From Saccostrea cucullata (Eukaryota), in contig NW_026919187.1 in the NCBI RefSeq assembly GCF_032062105.1, positions 62,001 through 126,000 on the forward strand: a stretch of 64,000 nucleotides of DNA. Direction: 5' to 3'. How positions within the stretch are numbered: the stretch's first letter is position 1; each line of letters opens with the position of its first letter. The position numbers are program-made. Of this stretch, positions 15,201 through 21,200 are shown piece by piece.

Positions 15201-18200
15201 TGGTACGAGAGGCGGGAGGAGGGTGCAGGGTGGATACTAGTAAATGTAGTATATAATGTTCATTAAATGTCTTGTCCCCACTTGTTGATAGACTTTATAT
15301 CCTAACACTCCTCCCCCTAATACAATACTTTTCTCTTTTTTGGAGGGGGGGGGGGTAGTCAAGGATTTGTCTTAGGTATGTTGTCATTTTTAAAAGTATA
15401 ATAACCCTGTCCAGTTTTTCAAAATCGATTTATATACGCGTCTTGATTTTGTTTTTCTACATTGAATCTAAAACAGATTTAAGAATTTTTAAATTAAAAT
15501 GATGGCATAGCCTGCTGAATGAGTTTGCATCATTCATTTTCGGTGAATCATATATACAATATGTAATAAAAATAAGTATATACTGGGTCAACATTAAAGG
15601 AATATTTGGTTAGCTGGAATTGTTTAATAACAAATGTAACTTCTTTATAATTGACTGACACATTAATTACCTAAGTTAAAATCTGCAGGTAAAGCTATAC
15701 AGTCATTTCAAGCCGTAAGTTCTTGTCAACACGATCGAAAGGTAACATGGGTATTTACGGGGAAGAAAAGGGCTGCGTTTGTTGAAAATACATGTATGTC
15801 ACAAATGACCCAATGAATGTAAGATAAGGTAATGGCTACTCCATTTAAATACCGGTATTTTGTTACTCTTAAGAGATATGTTCGTTCTTAAAATTCAATG
15901 CATGTTCCAACAATAAATAAACATTTCCTTTACCTTAGTTCACGTATTTATATTTATACATGTCAATACACTATAATAATGCGTTTTTCAGTGGAGTTTA
16001 ACGTGTCCTTTTTCAAAGTCATACATGTTCCATTGATATAAGATTTGCTTCCTAAATAGTTGATGGTGTGCTTGATTTCTAACTTTTTAATGGTGATTTC
16101 TCTGTTTGATGGTGAACTTGATTTGTTGATTCCTCTGTTTGATGGTGAACTTGATTCCTCTCTTTCAGGACCTGGAGGAATGTTTTATGAACTCCTTACA
16201 TCTTGTTTTAGACGAACGATATACAGAGACATTGCAAGAGAATTACCGCCTACTGTACGAATTCATCAAGTCTAATATACCACAGGCAACCTAGATATTG
16301 TAATGCTGCCTTGATAGCTTATAGTGAAGCTGCATGTAAACCTGTACTTCTGTACATGTATTTGCAGTGCGCATTCTCATAGAAGGCGCATTTTCAGTTG
16401 TATATTTATTGTGAACTTTTCTTTTTTTACAAACATAATTCTCACTCAAGACTGAATGTAATCATAGATCGAAGTTTGTTTAATTATGTGAGTATTTTAT
16501 ACCATTAAGTTATAGCAATGAAGTCGTGTTTCTTCTCTCTCAATTTGACTATTTTTATATGTATTCGGACGTTTTCTGCAAAAAATTAGATATGGTTGCA
16601 GTTCATCAGAAATAAAGTAAAATAAAACAACAATATATTTCTAGGTTTTCAAAAAAAAGAAATGTTCTTCGAGTCATCTTCCTTTTTGGTCATATCAAAA
16701 CCAAACATGTAAACTTGAGCTGAAAAAAATTACATCAGTGTTACAAAGTAGCCCGCCCGGAAAATGAATACAGTTGTTTTTCCTTCCGGGAGTGCTCATA
16801 TATCAAAAGTTTTGACTTGATTGTAAAATTTTGATATGAGGTATTCAAATGAAAAGTTGTGAGTAAAAATGGGCAATTTAACTTTTTGAGCTATGGTATA
16901 ACTTTCATGCAGAATTTTCGAACCGTAAGACGGTCTTTTCCCGCTTACATGGGAAGTAATTAAAAAGTTTTCATTAATTAACAGAATGTAAATTATAGTG
17001 TATTTTTGTCTTAATGTAACAACAGCATCAATTTATGATATGCAACTATATAACTTCTTGTAAACATCTAGTAATCGTACCGTTCTCCCCTTAAGAATAA
17101 CTTCATCCAAAAATACAGTACAGAGCAAATCTTTACCAAGTAGAAATGTGGCTGTTTTAAAAATCGGCAAGTCTGACGACGAGACCAGAATTTTATTGCA
17201 AAAAAGGCGCGGATCCAAAGGGGCGGTATTAAGCAGTCCGCACCTCGAGTTATCAGTATATTTATGTAAATACAAAATAGAATTTGGAAACCAGTAAACT
17301 TTGAAGTCTTACAATGACCCACCTATCCATCCCACCTTCTGTTTACTTTTTATCAAAATATTATATATTTCACTGTAAAAGCAATACCCCAAAAATAAAA
17401 GATCGCTTTTGCACAAACATGGTGACAAAGCTTTGCGTAGAAGAAAAAAAATAAACAGCAGAGCGAATTCTAGTAGTTACTATTATATAGAATATCTGAC
17501 TGCATTAAAATTCATACTTATATATATTACAAAGAAATGAAAACTGGAGAACATAATCTATACACCTTAAGAAATCTAAATATAAGAAAAATAAGACATG
17601 AATATGACAAAGCAATGTGGATTTCTTAATGCAGTTAGTTTTAAGGATGTGATATGTTCTTGAGGCCGGGTGGTTTTCTCTAAAACTGAATCTATGGATA
17701 AATCCACAGTTATCTGTTATCATTTAATATAACTCTTTAAATATTTTCTTTTTTAATTTCTTGAGGACTGGCTGCTGAGAATTATCCTCCGAATTCAGTG
17801 ACAGCGAGAATATCGACCGAACACGGACAAACAAGAATTCTAGAAAACAGTCTACTGCAAAAGAAACTTCGATATGTTATGAGATTGCACATGGTTGATT
17901 CTGTTTGTCTTTATTTTTGTCTTTTAATTTGATAGGTTGTCTATTGGTGGCCGCCATTACACATTGTTCGAAAACGTTTTCCAGTCCAGCTTTATTCATT
18001 GCCGAACATTCTACGTAGGTTTTTGCGCCATTAGCATTGGCGAATTTGATGCCATCCTGTAATGAAATTGGTCGTTTATTTTTCTCCTTCAGCTGATTTA
18101 TAACGTCTGAATTGTTTCTCATGTCTGTTTTTGTTCCTACTAAAATATAAGAAGCCTTGGGAGACAATATCCGTATTTCTGTAAGCCAGTTCCGTTTGAC

Positions 18201-21200
18201 ATTTTCCAGTGTTTCCGGTTCTATTACACTGAAACACACGAGAAACACATCTGTTCCACTAGTGAATAACTCTCTCAATTTCCGGTACTCATCCTGTGAA
18301 AAACAACAATGCGTATCAAAGTTTGTAAACTCCTTTCTAAGAACAATTAAATAAAAAAAGATTTGTTAAATACACAAAATATACATAAAAGTAAAACAAT
18401 AATAATAATTAAAAAAAAAACACAGTGTATACACACATATATGTAAGTTTGTGTTGGTAGGGGTTTTTTTTGGGGGGGGGGGCTGCGTCAAAATATTCGA
18501 GACCGTGACCTTTATCTTCTTCACACAATTTAACTACAATTAAAAGTACTTTTTGTTCTCTCTAAAAGTATTCACTGAAGTGTTAATGTACATAATAGAT
18601 AAAACTTCAACTTTCTTCTTTCTGCTCCAAGCTTCCTTATCATTTTACATGGCCACGGGACTGTGCTTTCTGGACGGGGTCAAAGAAAATTTCTTTTAAT
18701 TTATATGAAAATTTTATAACTGAAAATCCTGTGAGGGTTCCGAACCCCACTTCCCTCTAGATCCGCACACAATTGTAACGTAACCCTTCATAGATTTTTT
18801 TATTGTAAGATTCATGTAATGCTTTGTGGACATACCGGTACCTCCCCAGGGCCCTCCTCGAAACCATGATTTAACAGAAGTTTCGTGTAAAATTTTCTTT
18901 GCTGGATCAGTGATTTTTTTTTTCAAGATTATTCCCTACATAAGTATATGCTTGTTTCTGGGTAAAACTGTGAACTGCTTTCATGATTGGTACACCCATA
19001 TATTTAGCTCTGTGAATTTTAGTCGATGAATAATCATTGAGAAAAAAAAAACTTATTTGAGCTTTCAGATCAGGTGAGCTACCGGTATAAAGGCGCTTTT
19101 TAAAATCAACTTTCCAATGTACCCGGTATGATTCTTAAAACAGCAAATTAGCTATCTTAATTAACATCAGTTGACGATGGAGGAATTACATATCACGCGT
19201 CAATGCTGATGTAATGCGGAAGGTTTCACGCCACTTAGTTTTTCTCCTGTGTAGAGCATTTCTTACCTCGCCTATAGTGTCGGTCAATCCTAGAGTATAA
19301 GTGCTATCACAGACCTCAATGGTCACCGGAACTTCGTAGGCGTCACTCCTACCAGCTGAAACAGAAGAGTGTCAAGTCGGTAGTGATAAAAATAAGCCAT
19401 TAGAGCTGCCCTTTACAAATAAAATATATAGGTCATGCAAAAAACAAAAAAAAAATTGCAAATTTTGCATGAGAAATTTTTATGACCCCATTATCGGAAT
19501 TCGGCTGTATATAGATTTTTTGTCCTGGTCGCCCGTCTGTTTGTCTGCAAAAACGTTAACCTTGCATATATAACTTTTGACTGGTTAGAGCTAGGGCTTA
19601 TATGATATCACATATGTATTTCTTTGTCGCAAGACCAACATATTTGATACTTTGACCTTGACCTTGGTGTTTGACCCACTTTTGCGAAAGTTTATCAAAT
19701 TTCAACCTAGCTTGGTCTTGGTTTTTGACTCTTTCATGCTTTACATTTGTATTAACTGTGACAAGACCTTTCCTTGAGAATATATATTTTAAAACACTGA
19801 CACCGAATTTCGGGGCTTTGACCCCCTTAACCCCACCAGAGCTTTGCTCTGGATCGGCCTACTGGAGTCCTCAAAGCCCCTTTCCGTTTTAATTTTTGTT
19901 TCTACATCAAGCTCTTCCTGGATAAACTTGCAGGTCTTGTATTAATAAGTACATGTGTATTCACAAATGAGAAGTCCCAAAGCGGTTATACATGTCGAGA
20001 CTAGATTGGCTTTGAGTGGTGATAAAATGATCATCAAACGATGTTTAAAACTCCCTCTATATCTTGTAAGTTTCCTACTTCTTTCTCTCTATTTTGAATA
20101 GATAACTTCTATTTTCATTAAGGTTAGAGTATAGGAAGCCTGTATTGAGGATAGGGGAAAATCGTACAGAAACATAACGTCTCTGAAGCTGAAAAGGTTG
20201 GAATCCACTGTTACTTGTATGCTTAAATTGCACAAACAGCTGAATACGAGTATGTCGAAAATATTCAAGCATATGAAATTCTAGTTTTTGCTCAATGAAC
20301 ACCTTTAATGATCATTTCAACAATTTGTGAGGTAAACTTGCACCATTTTGAACTCACATTTTTAATCCATCACTATCTATAAATCAACCCCTAAAGAATG
20401 AACACATTTAGGTGTACTTTTTAACCTGTAGACTAAGCTGGCTCGAGGGCAGCGTGACATACGGTAAAACGTGACACTTCCTCCATGATGTGTCATTTCT
20501 TGTTGATCATTATCTTGCGCTTTTCTTTTGTACTACATGAACACTGATATTTTAAACTTAGCTCTTTACCTTTTATAGTACCACTTTCGTAAAGAGATGG
20601 TATCCTCCCGTCGGACGGAAATTCTTTGTTGGCAAACGTCATCAACATACAGGTTTTGCCGACGCCACTGTCGCCCACGGCGGTAACTTTGATCTTTTGG
20701 GGGGCCCTGCTAGCCTCTGTGGCTGAGGGATCTTCAGCCATGTTGTGATGTGAGCGGATTATCACTTCCTTCTACTTATCCATGTATACCTTCCTTTCAC
20801 TCCGTACAATTATCATCCATCAACAAATATTTCCTTTTAAAAATGTGTATGTATCAATCACAAACTTGTTCCAGAAAAAATTCCCAGAGAACTTTGGTTT
20901 ATTTCCAGTTTATTTCCAGACAATTGTTAAGATTTAAAATAAGGAGGACGTGCGATACGGTCACTAAAATGACTGCTGCGTCTTTAATACAGCGCTCAAC
21001 TAAGGACTGAACACTTGAACATGACCCGAGTTTTCCATCAAATAACCCCCGCGTCTCATCCTTATCAACTTCCGGAAAAAATCACGTGACTTGTACAACT
21101 TATTTCCTTTAACAGCAAATTTACTTACTTGTCAATATCATGTTTATAAATATACAGCTATTCTATTGTTGTTTATTGCCAGAATACGCTTTTTATATAC

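What the first reader, a model, noticed from the sequence alone, without database searches (positions are those of the whole stretch)
17877..20741. Atypical, probably GTPase-deficient Rho with a remodelled switch I
Seen (Rac numbering): G12->S (GDSGVGKT), Q61->E and A59->I (DTIGE vs DTAGQ). The effector loop is IPSLYE vs YxPTVFD (T35->S, F37->Y). A ~10-residue insertion (SGTIKAGRSDA) follows switch I and spans the exon 1/2 junction, switch II ends RELFTSG instead of RPLSYP, and the CaaX is CAIS (farnesyl type). G4 TKTD, G5 CSA and F28 are retained. Known: substitutions at 12/59/61 make Rnd1-3 and RhoH constitutively GTP-bound, but these have DTSGS/DTAGN, not DTIGE. Inference: an independently evolved, constitutively active lophotrochozoan Rho subtype with its own effectors, regulated by expression.
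Basis: partly seen in the sequence, partly recalled or inferred. Interest (0 to 1): 0.7.

Follow-up and report, generated by a model that had tools for sequence, protein, structure and literature searches.

The report
Mollusc-specific atypical Rho GTPase gene
This is a real, expressed three-exon gene for a small Rho-type signalling protein that bivalves and some snails have kept for hundreds of millions of years, even though it has lost the residues that normally let such proteins switch themselves off.

Summary
On the minus strand, three GT-AG exons (20741-20570, 19355-19267, 18293-17877) encode a 225-residue Rho-family protein. It carries GDSGVGKT, IPSLYE, a 12-residue insertion after switch I, DTIGE, RELFTSG, TKTD, ECSA and a C-terminal CAIS. 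A spliced database protein (P0004) shows exactly these exon junctions, so the insertion is not a splicing artefact.

The gene belongs to a conserved family. In 23 non-redundant full-length bivalve members:
- none has Gly at position 12 (Rac numbering), Thr at 35 or Gln at 61;
- position 61 varies (T/E/L/G/S);
- the nucleotide-binding residues are invariant;
- all 23 end in CxxS.

Related proteins from Haliotis and Batillaria share the lost T35 and Q61, an insertion at the same site and the CxxS end.

A careful tree groups bivalves and gastropods together (97/97). This group lies outside the TC10, core Cdc42 and RhoU clades, although a sister position to TC10 is not rejected.

Best reading: a mollusc-specific, farnesyl-type, nucleotide-binding but non-cycling Rho. 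It works like Rnd/RhoH but arose independently. GTPase deficiency is inferred from sequence, not measured. "Lophotrochozoan" is too broad for what was seen. Glu61 alone does not prove a dead enzyme.

The parts
20570..20741 (-). Coding exon 1 (ATG 20741-20739; 57 codons plus the first base of Ala58). Encodes the N-terminal tail, beta1, the P-loop GDSGVGKT, alpha1, switch I (FPSDGRIPSLYE) and the first part of the insertion (SGTIK).
   Evidence: Pfam Ras 25.2 bits. tblastn of P0004 covers 20765-20568. Donor G|GTAAAG at 20570/20569.
20652..20675 (-). P-loop codons GDSGVGKT. Ser (AGT, 20669-20667) stands at Rac position 12.
   Evidence: Ser in 21 and Cys in 2 of 23 bivalve members, Gly in none.
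19356..20569 (-). Intron 1 (GT..AG, phase 1), 1214 bases.
   Evidence: Absent from spliced protein P0004.
19267..19355 (-). Coding exon 2 (89 bases). Encodes the rest of the insertion (AGRSDAYEVP), beta2-beta3 and DTIGE, and ends exactly after the residue at Rac position 61.
   Evidence: tblastn of P0004 covers 19365-19267. No Pfam match on its own because it is only 29 aa.
19327..19355 (-). Exon-2 part of the insertion after switch I. The exon-1 part is 20570-20585. Together they encode SGTIKAGRSDAYEVP, of which 12 residues have no counterpart in TC10, Cdc42 or Rac.
   Evidence: 12-residue gap in the profile alignments to 2atx and 4did. T, G, E and P of the insertion are invariant or nearly so in bivalves. 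pLDDT is below 50 for P0004 residues 61-69.
19267..19281 (-). Switch II start DTIGE (D57, T58, A59I, G60, Q61E in Rac numbering).
   Evidence: D, T and G in 23/23; position 59 I20/V3; position 61 T13/E3/L3/G2/S2.
18294..19266 (-). Intron 2 (GT..AG, phase 0), 973 bases, between Rac codons 61 and 62.
   Evidence: Partial database ORFs from other bivalves and a gastropod start '..LQ' followed by DEYR/ENYR/DEYQ (P0008, P0204, P0197, P0279). That fits an intron at the same place.
17877..18293 (-). Coding exon 3 (138 codons plus TAA). Encodes switch II/alpha2 (DEYRKLRELFTSG), beta4, alpha3, TKTD (18123-18134), the Rho insert, ECSA, alpha5, a Lys-rich tail and CAIS (17880-17891).
   Evidence: Pfam Ras 73.3 bits. 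100% identity to P0004.

Best explanation
The locus encodes a functional, expressed member of a mollusc-restricted subfamily of atypical Rho GTPases. The subfamily arose within the Cdc42/TC10/RhoU part of the Rho tree.

The protein keeps an intact guanine-nucleotide pocket. It has given up the three residues that make a Rho protein a self-resetting switch: Gly12, the switch I Thr35 and the catalytic Gln61.

Most likely it binds GTP on synthesis and hydrolyses it poorly, if at all, even with a conventional RhoGAP. It would be held on membranes by a farnesylated CxxS end plus a Lys-rich tail. It would then signal through family-specific surfaces: the conserved 12-residue switch I insertion and the remodelled switch II (TDT[IV]Gx[DE]xYRxxRE). 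Its output would be set by how much protein is made and degraded, as for Rnd and RhoH.

**Shown:** gene structure, expression as a spliced RNA, conservation pattern, clade, fold.
**Inferred:** nucleotide state, lack of hydrolysis, farnesylation, separate effectors.
For: **Gene and splicing**
- Searches give the exon structure. The spliced protein P0004 matches it.
- Rho-family fold: AF2 mean pLDDT 86.1, pTM 0.81. Foldseek best matches are Rac, Cdc42 and RhoA, with target-normalised TM 0.88-0.97.
- The family profile scores best on TC10 (186.8 bits), then Cdc42 (182.7) and Rac1 (175.5).

**Family breadth**
- Named members come from Tegillarca, Pinctada, Mytilus, Mizuhopecten, Mactra, Mercenaria, Dreissena, Sinanodonta and Mya, at 284-385 bits (324 for the truncated Mytilus model).
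- Single-domain canonical Cdc42/TC10/Rac proteins score 200 bits or less.

**Residue counts in 23 non-redundant full-length bivalve members**
- K16, T17, D57, T58, G60, K116, D118 and S158 are 23/23.
- Position 12: S21/C2.
- Position 35: S16/E3/Q2/G2.
- Position 59: I20/V3.
- Position 61: T13/E3/L3/G2/S2.
- Thr inside the insertion: 23/23.
- Last residue Ser: 23/23, plus 22/22 partial or truncated sequences.

**Phylogeny**
- Careful tree (57 rows, insertion columns left out): bivalve clade 100/96; with the gastropod relatives 97/97.
- The family lies outside TC10 plus lophotrochozoan cdc42-like (97/88), core Cdc42 (97/91) and RhoU (100/100).
- A Haliotis relative used as query finds bivalve members ahead of any canonical Cdc42.

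**Literature**
- Rnd and RhoH lack Gly12, are GTPase-deficient and are controlled by expression and turnover (passages in PMC13236570).
Against: - No biochemical measurement exists for any member.
- Glu at 61 (this window, its close relative P0007 and Pinctada) raised intrinsic hydrolysis in Ras (PMC2987813 passage).
- Thr at 61 (13/23) is what I recall for Rap, which is switched off by a GAP that supplies the catalytic residue. A dedicated GAP therefore cannot be excluded.
- Loss of Thr35 could weaken Mg2+/GTP binding or uncouple switch I. The protein might then be GDP-bound or a fast exchanger rather than GTP-locked.
- Two of three gastropod relatives keep Gly12.
- The insertion has low AF2 confidence, so nothing structural can be said about it.
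- Rnd, RhoH, RhoBTB and RhoD/F were not in the tree.
- A sister relation to TC10 is not rejected (p-AU 0.331).
Confidence: 0.6

Rival explanations
1. The protein is a working switch with a non-canonical off-mechanism. It still cycles. GTP would be hydrolysed intrinsically (Glu61 forms) or with a dedicated GAP that supplies the catalytic residue in trans (Rap/RapGAP style, Thr61 forms). The invariant Thr of the insertion would replace Thr35 as Mg2+/gamma-phosphate sensor.
For: - Thr at position 61 in 13/23 members and Glu in 3/23.
- Ras Q61E is reported to have increased intrinsic GTPase (passage).
- Thr in the insertion is invariant, 23/23.
- All nucleotide-binding residues are kept.
Against: - Position 61 also holds Leu, Gly and Ser (7/23), and Leu/Met in gastropods. 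No single chemistry is conserved there.
- Position 12 is never Gly in bivalves.
- No candidate GAP is known.
- The gastropod relatives lack the aligned insertion Thr.
Confidence: 0.2
2. The protein is a nucleotide-independent pseudoGTPase scaffold. Without Thr35 and with a bulky residue at 59, it binds GDP only, binds weakly, or does not respond to the nucleotide at all. It would act as a lipid-anchored adaptor.
For: - Canonical Thr35 absent in 23/23.
- A59 replaced by Ile or Val in 23/23.
- The aromatic residue before D57 is replaced by Thr in 12/12 members of A3.
- Switch I plus the insertion are predicted to be flexible.
Against: GxxxxGKT, DTxG, [T]KxD and the Ser of the G5 CSA motif are invariant across about 23 sequences from distant bivalve orders. 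That conservation is hard to explain unless nucleotide binding matters.
Confidence: 0.13
3. The gene is an ordinary Cdc42 or TC10/RhoQ orthologue, as the automatic names say ('cdc42 homolog', 'RhoQ', 'RACC-like'), with normal regulation.
For: - Best solved relatives are TC10 and Cdc42.
- Automatic names are listed.
- A clade joining the family with TC10-like proteins is not rejected (p-AU 0.331).
Against: - The family lies outside the starred TC10 and core Cdc42 clades, on a stem of 0.41 changes per site.
- Canonical Cdc42-type proteins from molluscs exist separately. Examples are Aplysia, Biomphalaria and Candidula, which score best on Cdc42 in the PDB.
- Gly12, Thr35 and Gln61 are all replaced.
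Confidence: 0.05
4. The gene is a decaying pseudogene or an annotation or assembly artefact.
For: The catalytic residues are replaced. One public Mytilus model (P0013) lacks 22 residues.
Against: - The reading frame is intact and all four splice sites are canonical.
- A spliced transcript-length contig encodes the same protein.
- Orthologues exist in at least 9 named bivalve species, with 63% mean column identity.
Confidence: 0.02

Closest known systems
TC10 (RhoQ/RhoJ) and Cdc42
   Same: - Best sequence matches among solved structures: 2atx 186.8 bits, Cdc42 about 182 bits.
- Same G-domain fold with the Rho insert.
- Same weakly supported supergroup in the tree (81/97).
- A clade with TC10-like proteins is not rejected.
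   Different: - Gly12, Thr35, Ala59 and Gln61 are all replaced.
- There is a 12-residue insertion after switch I.
- RPLSYP becomes RELFTxG.
- The family ends CxxS. The canonical proteins in hand mostly end in Leu, and some end otherwise.
- The family lies outside both starred clades.
Rnd1-3 and RhoH (GTPase-deficient atypical Rho proteins)
   Same: Non-Gly residue at position 12 and non-Gln at 61, which in Rnd and RhoH gives constitutive GTP binding and control by expression and turnover (PMC13236570 passages). Farnesyl-type end, as I recall for Rnd.
   Different: - The family's nearest relatives are Cdc42/TC10, not RhoA.
- The switch II motif differs.
- I recall Rnd and RhoH as keeping Thr35 and lacking the switch I insertion.
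- They were not compared in a tree here.
Rap GTPases (Thr61)
   Same: Thr in place of the catalytic Gln in 13 of 23 family members. That Rap carries Thr61 is recalled.
   Different: Rap is a Ras-family protein that keeps Gly12 and Thr35, and it has a dedicated GAP (recalled). Here position 61 is not fixed.
RhoBTB
   Same: An atypical Rho domain with substitutions in switch II and extra sequence after switch I (recalled).
   Different: The protein has no BTB domains. It is 225 residues long and ends in a CaaX box, and Pfam finds only Ras/Roc.

Membership tests
Rho family of the Ras superfamily | Ras-type G domain with G1 (GxxxxGKS/T), G3 (DxxG), G4 ([NT]KxD) and G5 (SA) motifs | tested here: met
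   GDSGVGKT, DTIG, TKTD and ECSA are in the exon translations. Pfam Ras matches exons 1 and 3. These residues are invariant in 23/23 bivalve members, except the first residue of TKxD (21/23).
Rho family of the Ras superfamily | Rho insert between G4 and G5 | tested here: met
   The profile aligns without a gap through the insert region of TC10 and Cdc42. AF2 shows a helix at P0004 residues 157-165 between beta5 and alpha4.
Rho family of the Ras superfamily | Closest solved relatives are Rho-family proteins | tested here: met
   All 60 listed sequence hits are TC10, Cdc42 or Rac1. The Foldseek matches listed through rank 50 are Rac, Cdc42, RhoA/B/C or TC10.
Cdc42 / TC10 subfamily | Falls inside the Cdc42 or TC10 clade | tested here: not met
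   The family lies outside TC10 plus cdc42-like (97/88) and core Cdc42 (97/91) in the careful tree. A sister position to TC10-like proteins is not rejected (p-AU 0.331).
Cdc42 / TC10 subfamily | Canonical switch residues (G12, YVPTVFDNY with T35, DTAGQE) | tested here: not met
   Positions 12, 35 and 61 are non-canonical in 23/23 members.
RhoU/RhoV subfamily | Falls inside the RhoU/V clade | tested here: not met
   The RhoU-like rows form their own 100/100 clade without the family. The label of P0120 was checked: it scores best on 2q3h RhoU.
Rnd subfamily | Clusters with Rnd on the RhoA side of the tree | not tested
   No Rnd sequence was delivered by any tool, so none is in the tree. Indirect evidence only: no Rnd chain appears among the best 60 sequence hits or the listed fold hits. 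The one RhoA-like row is the distant outgroup.
RhoBTB subfamily | BTB domains after the Rho domain | tested here: not met
   The protein ends at CAIS, 225 residues in. Pfam finds no BTB domain.
GTPase-deficient (atypical) Rho class, defined by function | Replacement of Gly12 and/or Gln61 | tested here: met
   Ser at 12 and Glu at 61 in the window. No Gly12 and no Gln61 in 23/23 members.
GTPase-deficient (atypical) Rho class, defined by function | No intrinsic or GAP-stimulated GTP hydrolysis; constitutively GTP-bound | not testable with these tools
   This needs biochemistry.
Farnesylated small GTPases | CaaX box whose last residue directs farnesyltransferase (S, M, A or Q; rule recalled) | tested here: met
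   CAIS in the window. Last residue Ser in 23/23 full-length members and 22/22 partial or truncated ones. Actual lipidation was not tested.

The most novel reading that the evidence does not exclude
This is a tenth, so far unnamed Rho subfamily that dates back at least to the common ancestor of bivalves and gastropods. In it both gamma-phosphate sensing by switch I (Thr35) and catalysis (Gly12, Gln61) were abandoned, while the nucleotide pocket was kept. The family would be a farnesylated 'locked' Rho. Its conserved 12-residue switch I insertion, which spans an intron and may have arisen by splice-site shift, would form a new partner-binding surface or supply a replacement Thr.
Probability: 0.45. 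Interest if true: 0.6.

Novelty: new variant of a known kind. Interest (0 to 1): 0.5.

Why it matters
Catalogues of Rho GTPases list nine subfamilies, including those for bivalves (Li 2015, PMC4669188) and early animals (Beljan 2020, PMC7600811). I found no description of this family in what I read. Public records call its members 'cdc42 homolog', 'RhoQ', 'RACC-like' or 'hypothetical'.

If the reading holds, molluscs evolved their own GTPase-deficient Rho independently of Rnd and RhoH. It would serve as a natural experiment on which parts of a small GTPase can be lost while nucleotide binding is kept. It would also flag genes that automatic annotation treats as ordinary Cdc42. The practical value is modest: better annotation, and a candidate regulator of the bivalve cytoskeleton or haemocytes.

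Tried and rejected
The source organisms of unnamed clusters (P0004, P0007, P0057 and others) therefore stay unknown.
- **99-row careful tree.** It did not finish in 457 s. I report only its quick version: family 23 rows, SH-aLRT 98. I replaced it with a 57-row careful tree.
- **Rfam** on the whole window found 0 matches.
- **Pfam on exon 2 alone** found nothing, because it is only 29 aa.
- **The two top hits of the representative search** (P0032, 1207 aa; P0033, 786 aa) are multi-domain proteins whose high scores are summed over 3-4 Rho-like domains. I looked only at their motif strings and left them out.
- **Pseudogene or artefact:** considered and rejected (see rivals).
- **Li et al.'s bivalve 'Rnd' as this family:** considered and judged unlikely. 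Their text does not list Rnd among the proteins with a CAAX box, and it gives Rnd 8.9-22.6% similarity to the others. Their supplements were not seen.
- **Not used:** Complex prediction, the protein-atlas search, genome contigs (bacteria and archaea only).
- **Closed:** Metagenome contigs, viral contigs and paper supplements.

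
Full report
**What is in the sequence**

The finding lies on the minus strand.
- The ATG is at 20741-20739.
- Exon 1 runs to 20570 (donor AAAAG|GTAAAG).
- Exon 2 is 19355-19267 (acceptor TTTCAG|, donor GAG|GTAAGA).
- Exon 3 is 18293-17880, followed by TAA at 17879-17877 (acceptor TTTTTCACAG|).

Pfam Ras matches exon 1 (25.2 bits) and exon 3 (73.3 bits). Exon 2 (29 aa) is too short to match alone.

All full-length work used a database protein instead.

**Splicing and expression**

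The exon 3 search found 28 proteins among 37 candidates. The best is P0004: 233 aa, 100% identical to exon 3, from a contig of only 1050 nt. P0004 reads straight through both junctions, with the insertion intact.
- It differs from the window's exon translations by one residue (Ser11 to Gly).
- It has eight extra N-terminal residues read from the 5' leader.

The genomic introns are 1214 and 973 bases, so a 1050-nt contig with the whole reading frame must be a spliced RNA. A tblastn of nine Rho proteins against the window found only these three blocks, so there is one copy.

**A conserved family**

A profile search with 12 aligned members scored 8000 candidates; 377 had E <= 1e-20 and 120 were listed. 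Full-length members score 284-392 bits. Named ones, at 284-385 bits (324 for the truncated Mytilus model), are:
- Tegillarca granosa, Pinctada imbricata, Mytilus galloprovincialis
- Mizuhopecten yessoensis ('cdc42 homolog' / 'RhoQ')
- Mactra antiquata ('GTPase cdc42'), Mercenaria mercenaria ('cdc42 homolog')
- Dreissena polymorpha, Sinanodonta woodiana, Mya arenaria ('RACC-like')

Single-domain canonical Cdc42/TC10/Rac proteins score 200 bits or less. Three longer listed proteins (313-362 aa) score 226-332 bits and were not examined.

The HMMER scan of 1.84 billion representatives agrees. After the multi-domain proteins, the single-domain hits are P0034 (317.6 bits) and P0035 (281.2), then two partial sequences (P0005 245.7, P0048 191.5). 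The best canonical single-domain protein is P0050 at 189.2. The family therefore spans pteriomorph, heterodont and unionid bivalves. No oyster protein was listed at family level. That absence is tentative, given the word-based search.

**Residue pattern**

I counted 23 non-redundant full-length bivalve members. Two near-duplicates, P0010 and P0183, were dropped.

| Position (Rac numbering) | Residues seen |
|---|---|
| K16, T17, D57, T58, G60, K116, D118, S158 | 23/23 each |
| 12 | Ser 21, Cys 2, never Gly |
| 35 | Ser 16, Glu 3, Gln 2, Gly 2, never Thr |
| 59 | Ile 20, Val 3 |
| 61 | Thr 13, Glu 3, Leu 3, Gly 2, Ser 2, never Gln |
| 69 | Glu 21, Gly 2 (Pro in the canonical proteins) |

- The residue before D57, aromatic in the canonical proteins, is Thr in 12/12 members of alignment A3.
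- Inside the insertion, one Thr is invariant (23/23). Gly, Glu and Pro are nearly so.
- Every member ends in CxxS: 23/23 full-length and 22/22 partial or truncated sequences.

So the nucleotide pocket is under strong constraint and the catalytic and sensor positions are not. The new features (insertion, switch II, farnesyl-type end) are themselves conserved.

**Relatives outside bivalves**

Haliotis asinina 'cdc42 homolog' (P0263) and Batillaria attramentaria P0277, with the unnamed P0278 and P0279, share several features:
- no Thr35 (Gly);
- Val at 59;
- Leu, Met or Thr at 61;
- an insertion at the same site, different in sequence and a few residues shorter;
- DEYQKLRE after switch II;
- CVIS or CVVS ends.

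Two of the three keep Gly12. With Haliotis as query, the best non-gastropod hits are bivalve family members (147-154 bits), ahead of any canonical Cdc42 (144 or less).

Partial ORFs from genomic contigs begin '..LQ' directly before DEYR, ENYR or DEYQ in other bivalves and in P0279. That fits a shared intron between codons 61 and 62. This is an inference.

**Phylogeny**

I chose 57 of the 387 proteins in hand:
- 12 bivalve members and 4 gastropod-type proteins;
- 6 lophotrochozoan cdc42-like, 6 TC10-like, 7 Cdc42 and 4 other Cdc42-like proteins;
- 10 Rac-like, 2 RhoU-like and 6 others.

The insertion columns were left out. The method was IQ-TREE with LG+C20+F+G4 PMSF, ultrafast bootstrap and SH-aLRT.

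| Clade | Support |
|---|---|
| Bivalve clade | 100/96 |
| Bivalves plus gastropod-type | 97/97, stem 0.41 |
| TC10 plus lophotrochozoan cdc42-like, excluding the family | 97/88 |
| Core Cdc42, excluding the family | 97/91 |
| RhoU-like, excluding the family | 100/100 |
| All of the above as one supergroup apart from the Rac rows | 81/97 (weak) |

- Holding the family together with the TC10-like rows costs 4.6 log-likelihood units and is not rejected (p-AU 0.331). The sister group is therefore open.
- A quick 99-row tree also gave the family as one clade (23 rows, SH-aLRT 98).
- Labels were checked against solved structures: P0120 scores best on RhoU, P0212 on Cdc42 and P0139 on RhoA.
- Limits: long branches (P0057, the gastropods), and no Rnd, RhoH, RhoBTB or RhoD/F sequences, because no tool delivered any.

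**Structure**

AF2 on P0004 with a 91-row alignment gives mean pLDDT 86.1 and pTM 0.81. It predicts a normal G-domain order of strands and helices, including the Rho insert helix. Confidence is below 50 for residues 61-69 (the insertion) and 47-66 across switch I. Foldseek finds Rac, Cdc42, RhoA and TC10, with target-normalised TM 0.88-0.97. The model says the core is a Rho fold. It says nothing reliable about the insertion.

**How it most likely works**

*Shown:* an expressed, conserved Rho-fold protein with an intact nucleotide pocket and without Gly12, Thr35 or Gln61.

*From established knowledge:* Gly12 and Gln61 replacements block intrinsic and GAP-stimulated hydrolysis in Ras and Rho proteins. 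Rnd and RhoH, which lack Gly12, are GTPase-deficient, GAP-insensitive and controlled by expression and turnover (passages of PMC13236570).

*Inferred:* the mollusc protein is loaded with GTP and does not reset. It is farnesylated at CxxS and membrane-bound through its Lys-rich tail. It uses the conserved insertion and the remodelled switch II for its own partners.

*Caveats:*
- Ras Q61E has raised intrinsic GTPase (passage of PMC2987813).
- Thr61 recalls Rap and a trans-acting GAP (recalled).
- Loss of Thr35 may uncouple switch I from the nucleotide, making it a 'broken switch' rather than an 'always on' one.

**Literature**

- Li et al. [quoted passage not shown]
- Their scallop table has no 217-aa entry (the length of P0181), and no text describes these motifs.
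- Their supplements, which hold the sequences, are closed. I cannot exclude that their 226-aa scallop 'Cdc42' or their 'Rnd' is this gene under another model.
- Beljan et al. 2020 (PMC7600811; passages only) also keep nine subfamilies.
- Searches gave no paper describing such a family, judged from titles and abstracts apart from the two papers above. Searches were run for the Ras Q61E and Rnd/RhoH facts.

**Verdict**

It is a new variant of a known kind: an independently evolved atypical Rho subfamily in molluscs. It is moderately interesting, and the key functional claim still needs biochemistry.

The window itself is from a pteriomorph-like bivalve; its nearest named relative in the tree is Pinctada.

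Noticed in passing
window 6009-7054 (+): Two exons of a presenilin gene (Pfam Presenilin, 118.1 and 64.9 bits).
   Followed up: partly
window 14447-14905 (+): An exon with a globin domain (Pfam Globin, 31.8 bits).
   Followed up: partly
window 27267-30119 (-): Three long open frames. The one at 27267-27620 carries a Clathrin-H-link domain (46.2 bits). The other two have no Pfam match.
   Followed up: partly
window 36362-37974 (+): Two exons of an AAA ATPase whose sequence looks like a proteasome regulatory subunit. Only the AAA match comes from Pfam; the proteasome reading is my recall.
   Followed up: partly
window 49021-50960 (-): Retrotransposon pol remnants: reverse transcriptase, RNase H and integrase-like frames in different reading frames.
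   Followed up: partly
window 41618-42136 (-) and 59047-59415 (-): Two open frames share a nearly identical stretch of about 45 residues (…KLLGLPGWEYVMVSLVVVAAVGVGGSVAIVCKKCCGLAG…). It looks like a duplicated exon of a single-pass membrane protein. The first has no Pfam match.
   Followed up: no
window 54845-55078: A run of 234 N, flanked by short tandem repeats visible in the translation (repeated YI and CV). It was left as it is.
   Followed up: no
protein P0013 (Mytilus galloprovincialis public model): This 196-aa model lacks 22 residues (beta2-beta3 and D57) that the otherwise near-identical P0012 has. It is probably a mis-predicted exon rather than a real isoform.
   Followed up: no
protein P0081 (unnamed, 203 aa): A member of the canonical lophotrochozoan cdc42-like clade (99/95) that on its own has Gly at position 35 and Leu at 61 (DTSGLD) but no insertion. 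This is a second, separate loss of the switch residues.
   Followed up: partly
proteins P0032 (1207 aa) and P0033 (786 aa): Top-scoring hits of the representative search carry 3-4 tandem Rho-like domains with unusual P-loops and switch II motifs. Their origin is unknown.
   Followed up: no
search results: No oyster (Crassostrea or Ostrea) protein was listed at family-level score, although the related Pinctada has one. This could be a loss in oysters or a gap in the search.
   Followed up: no
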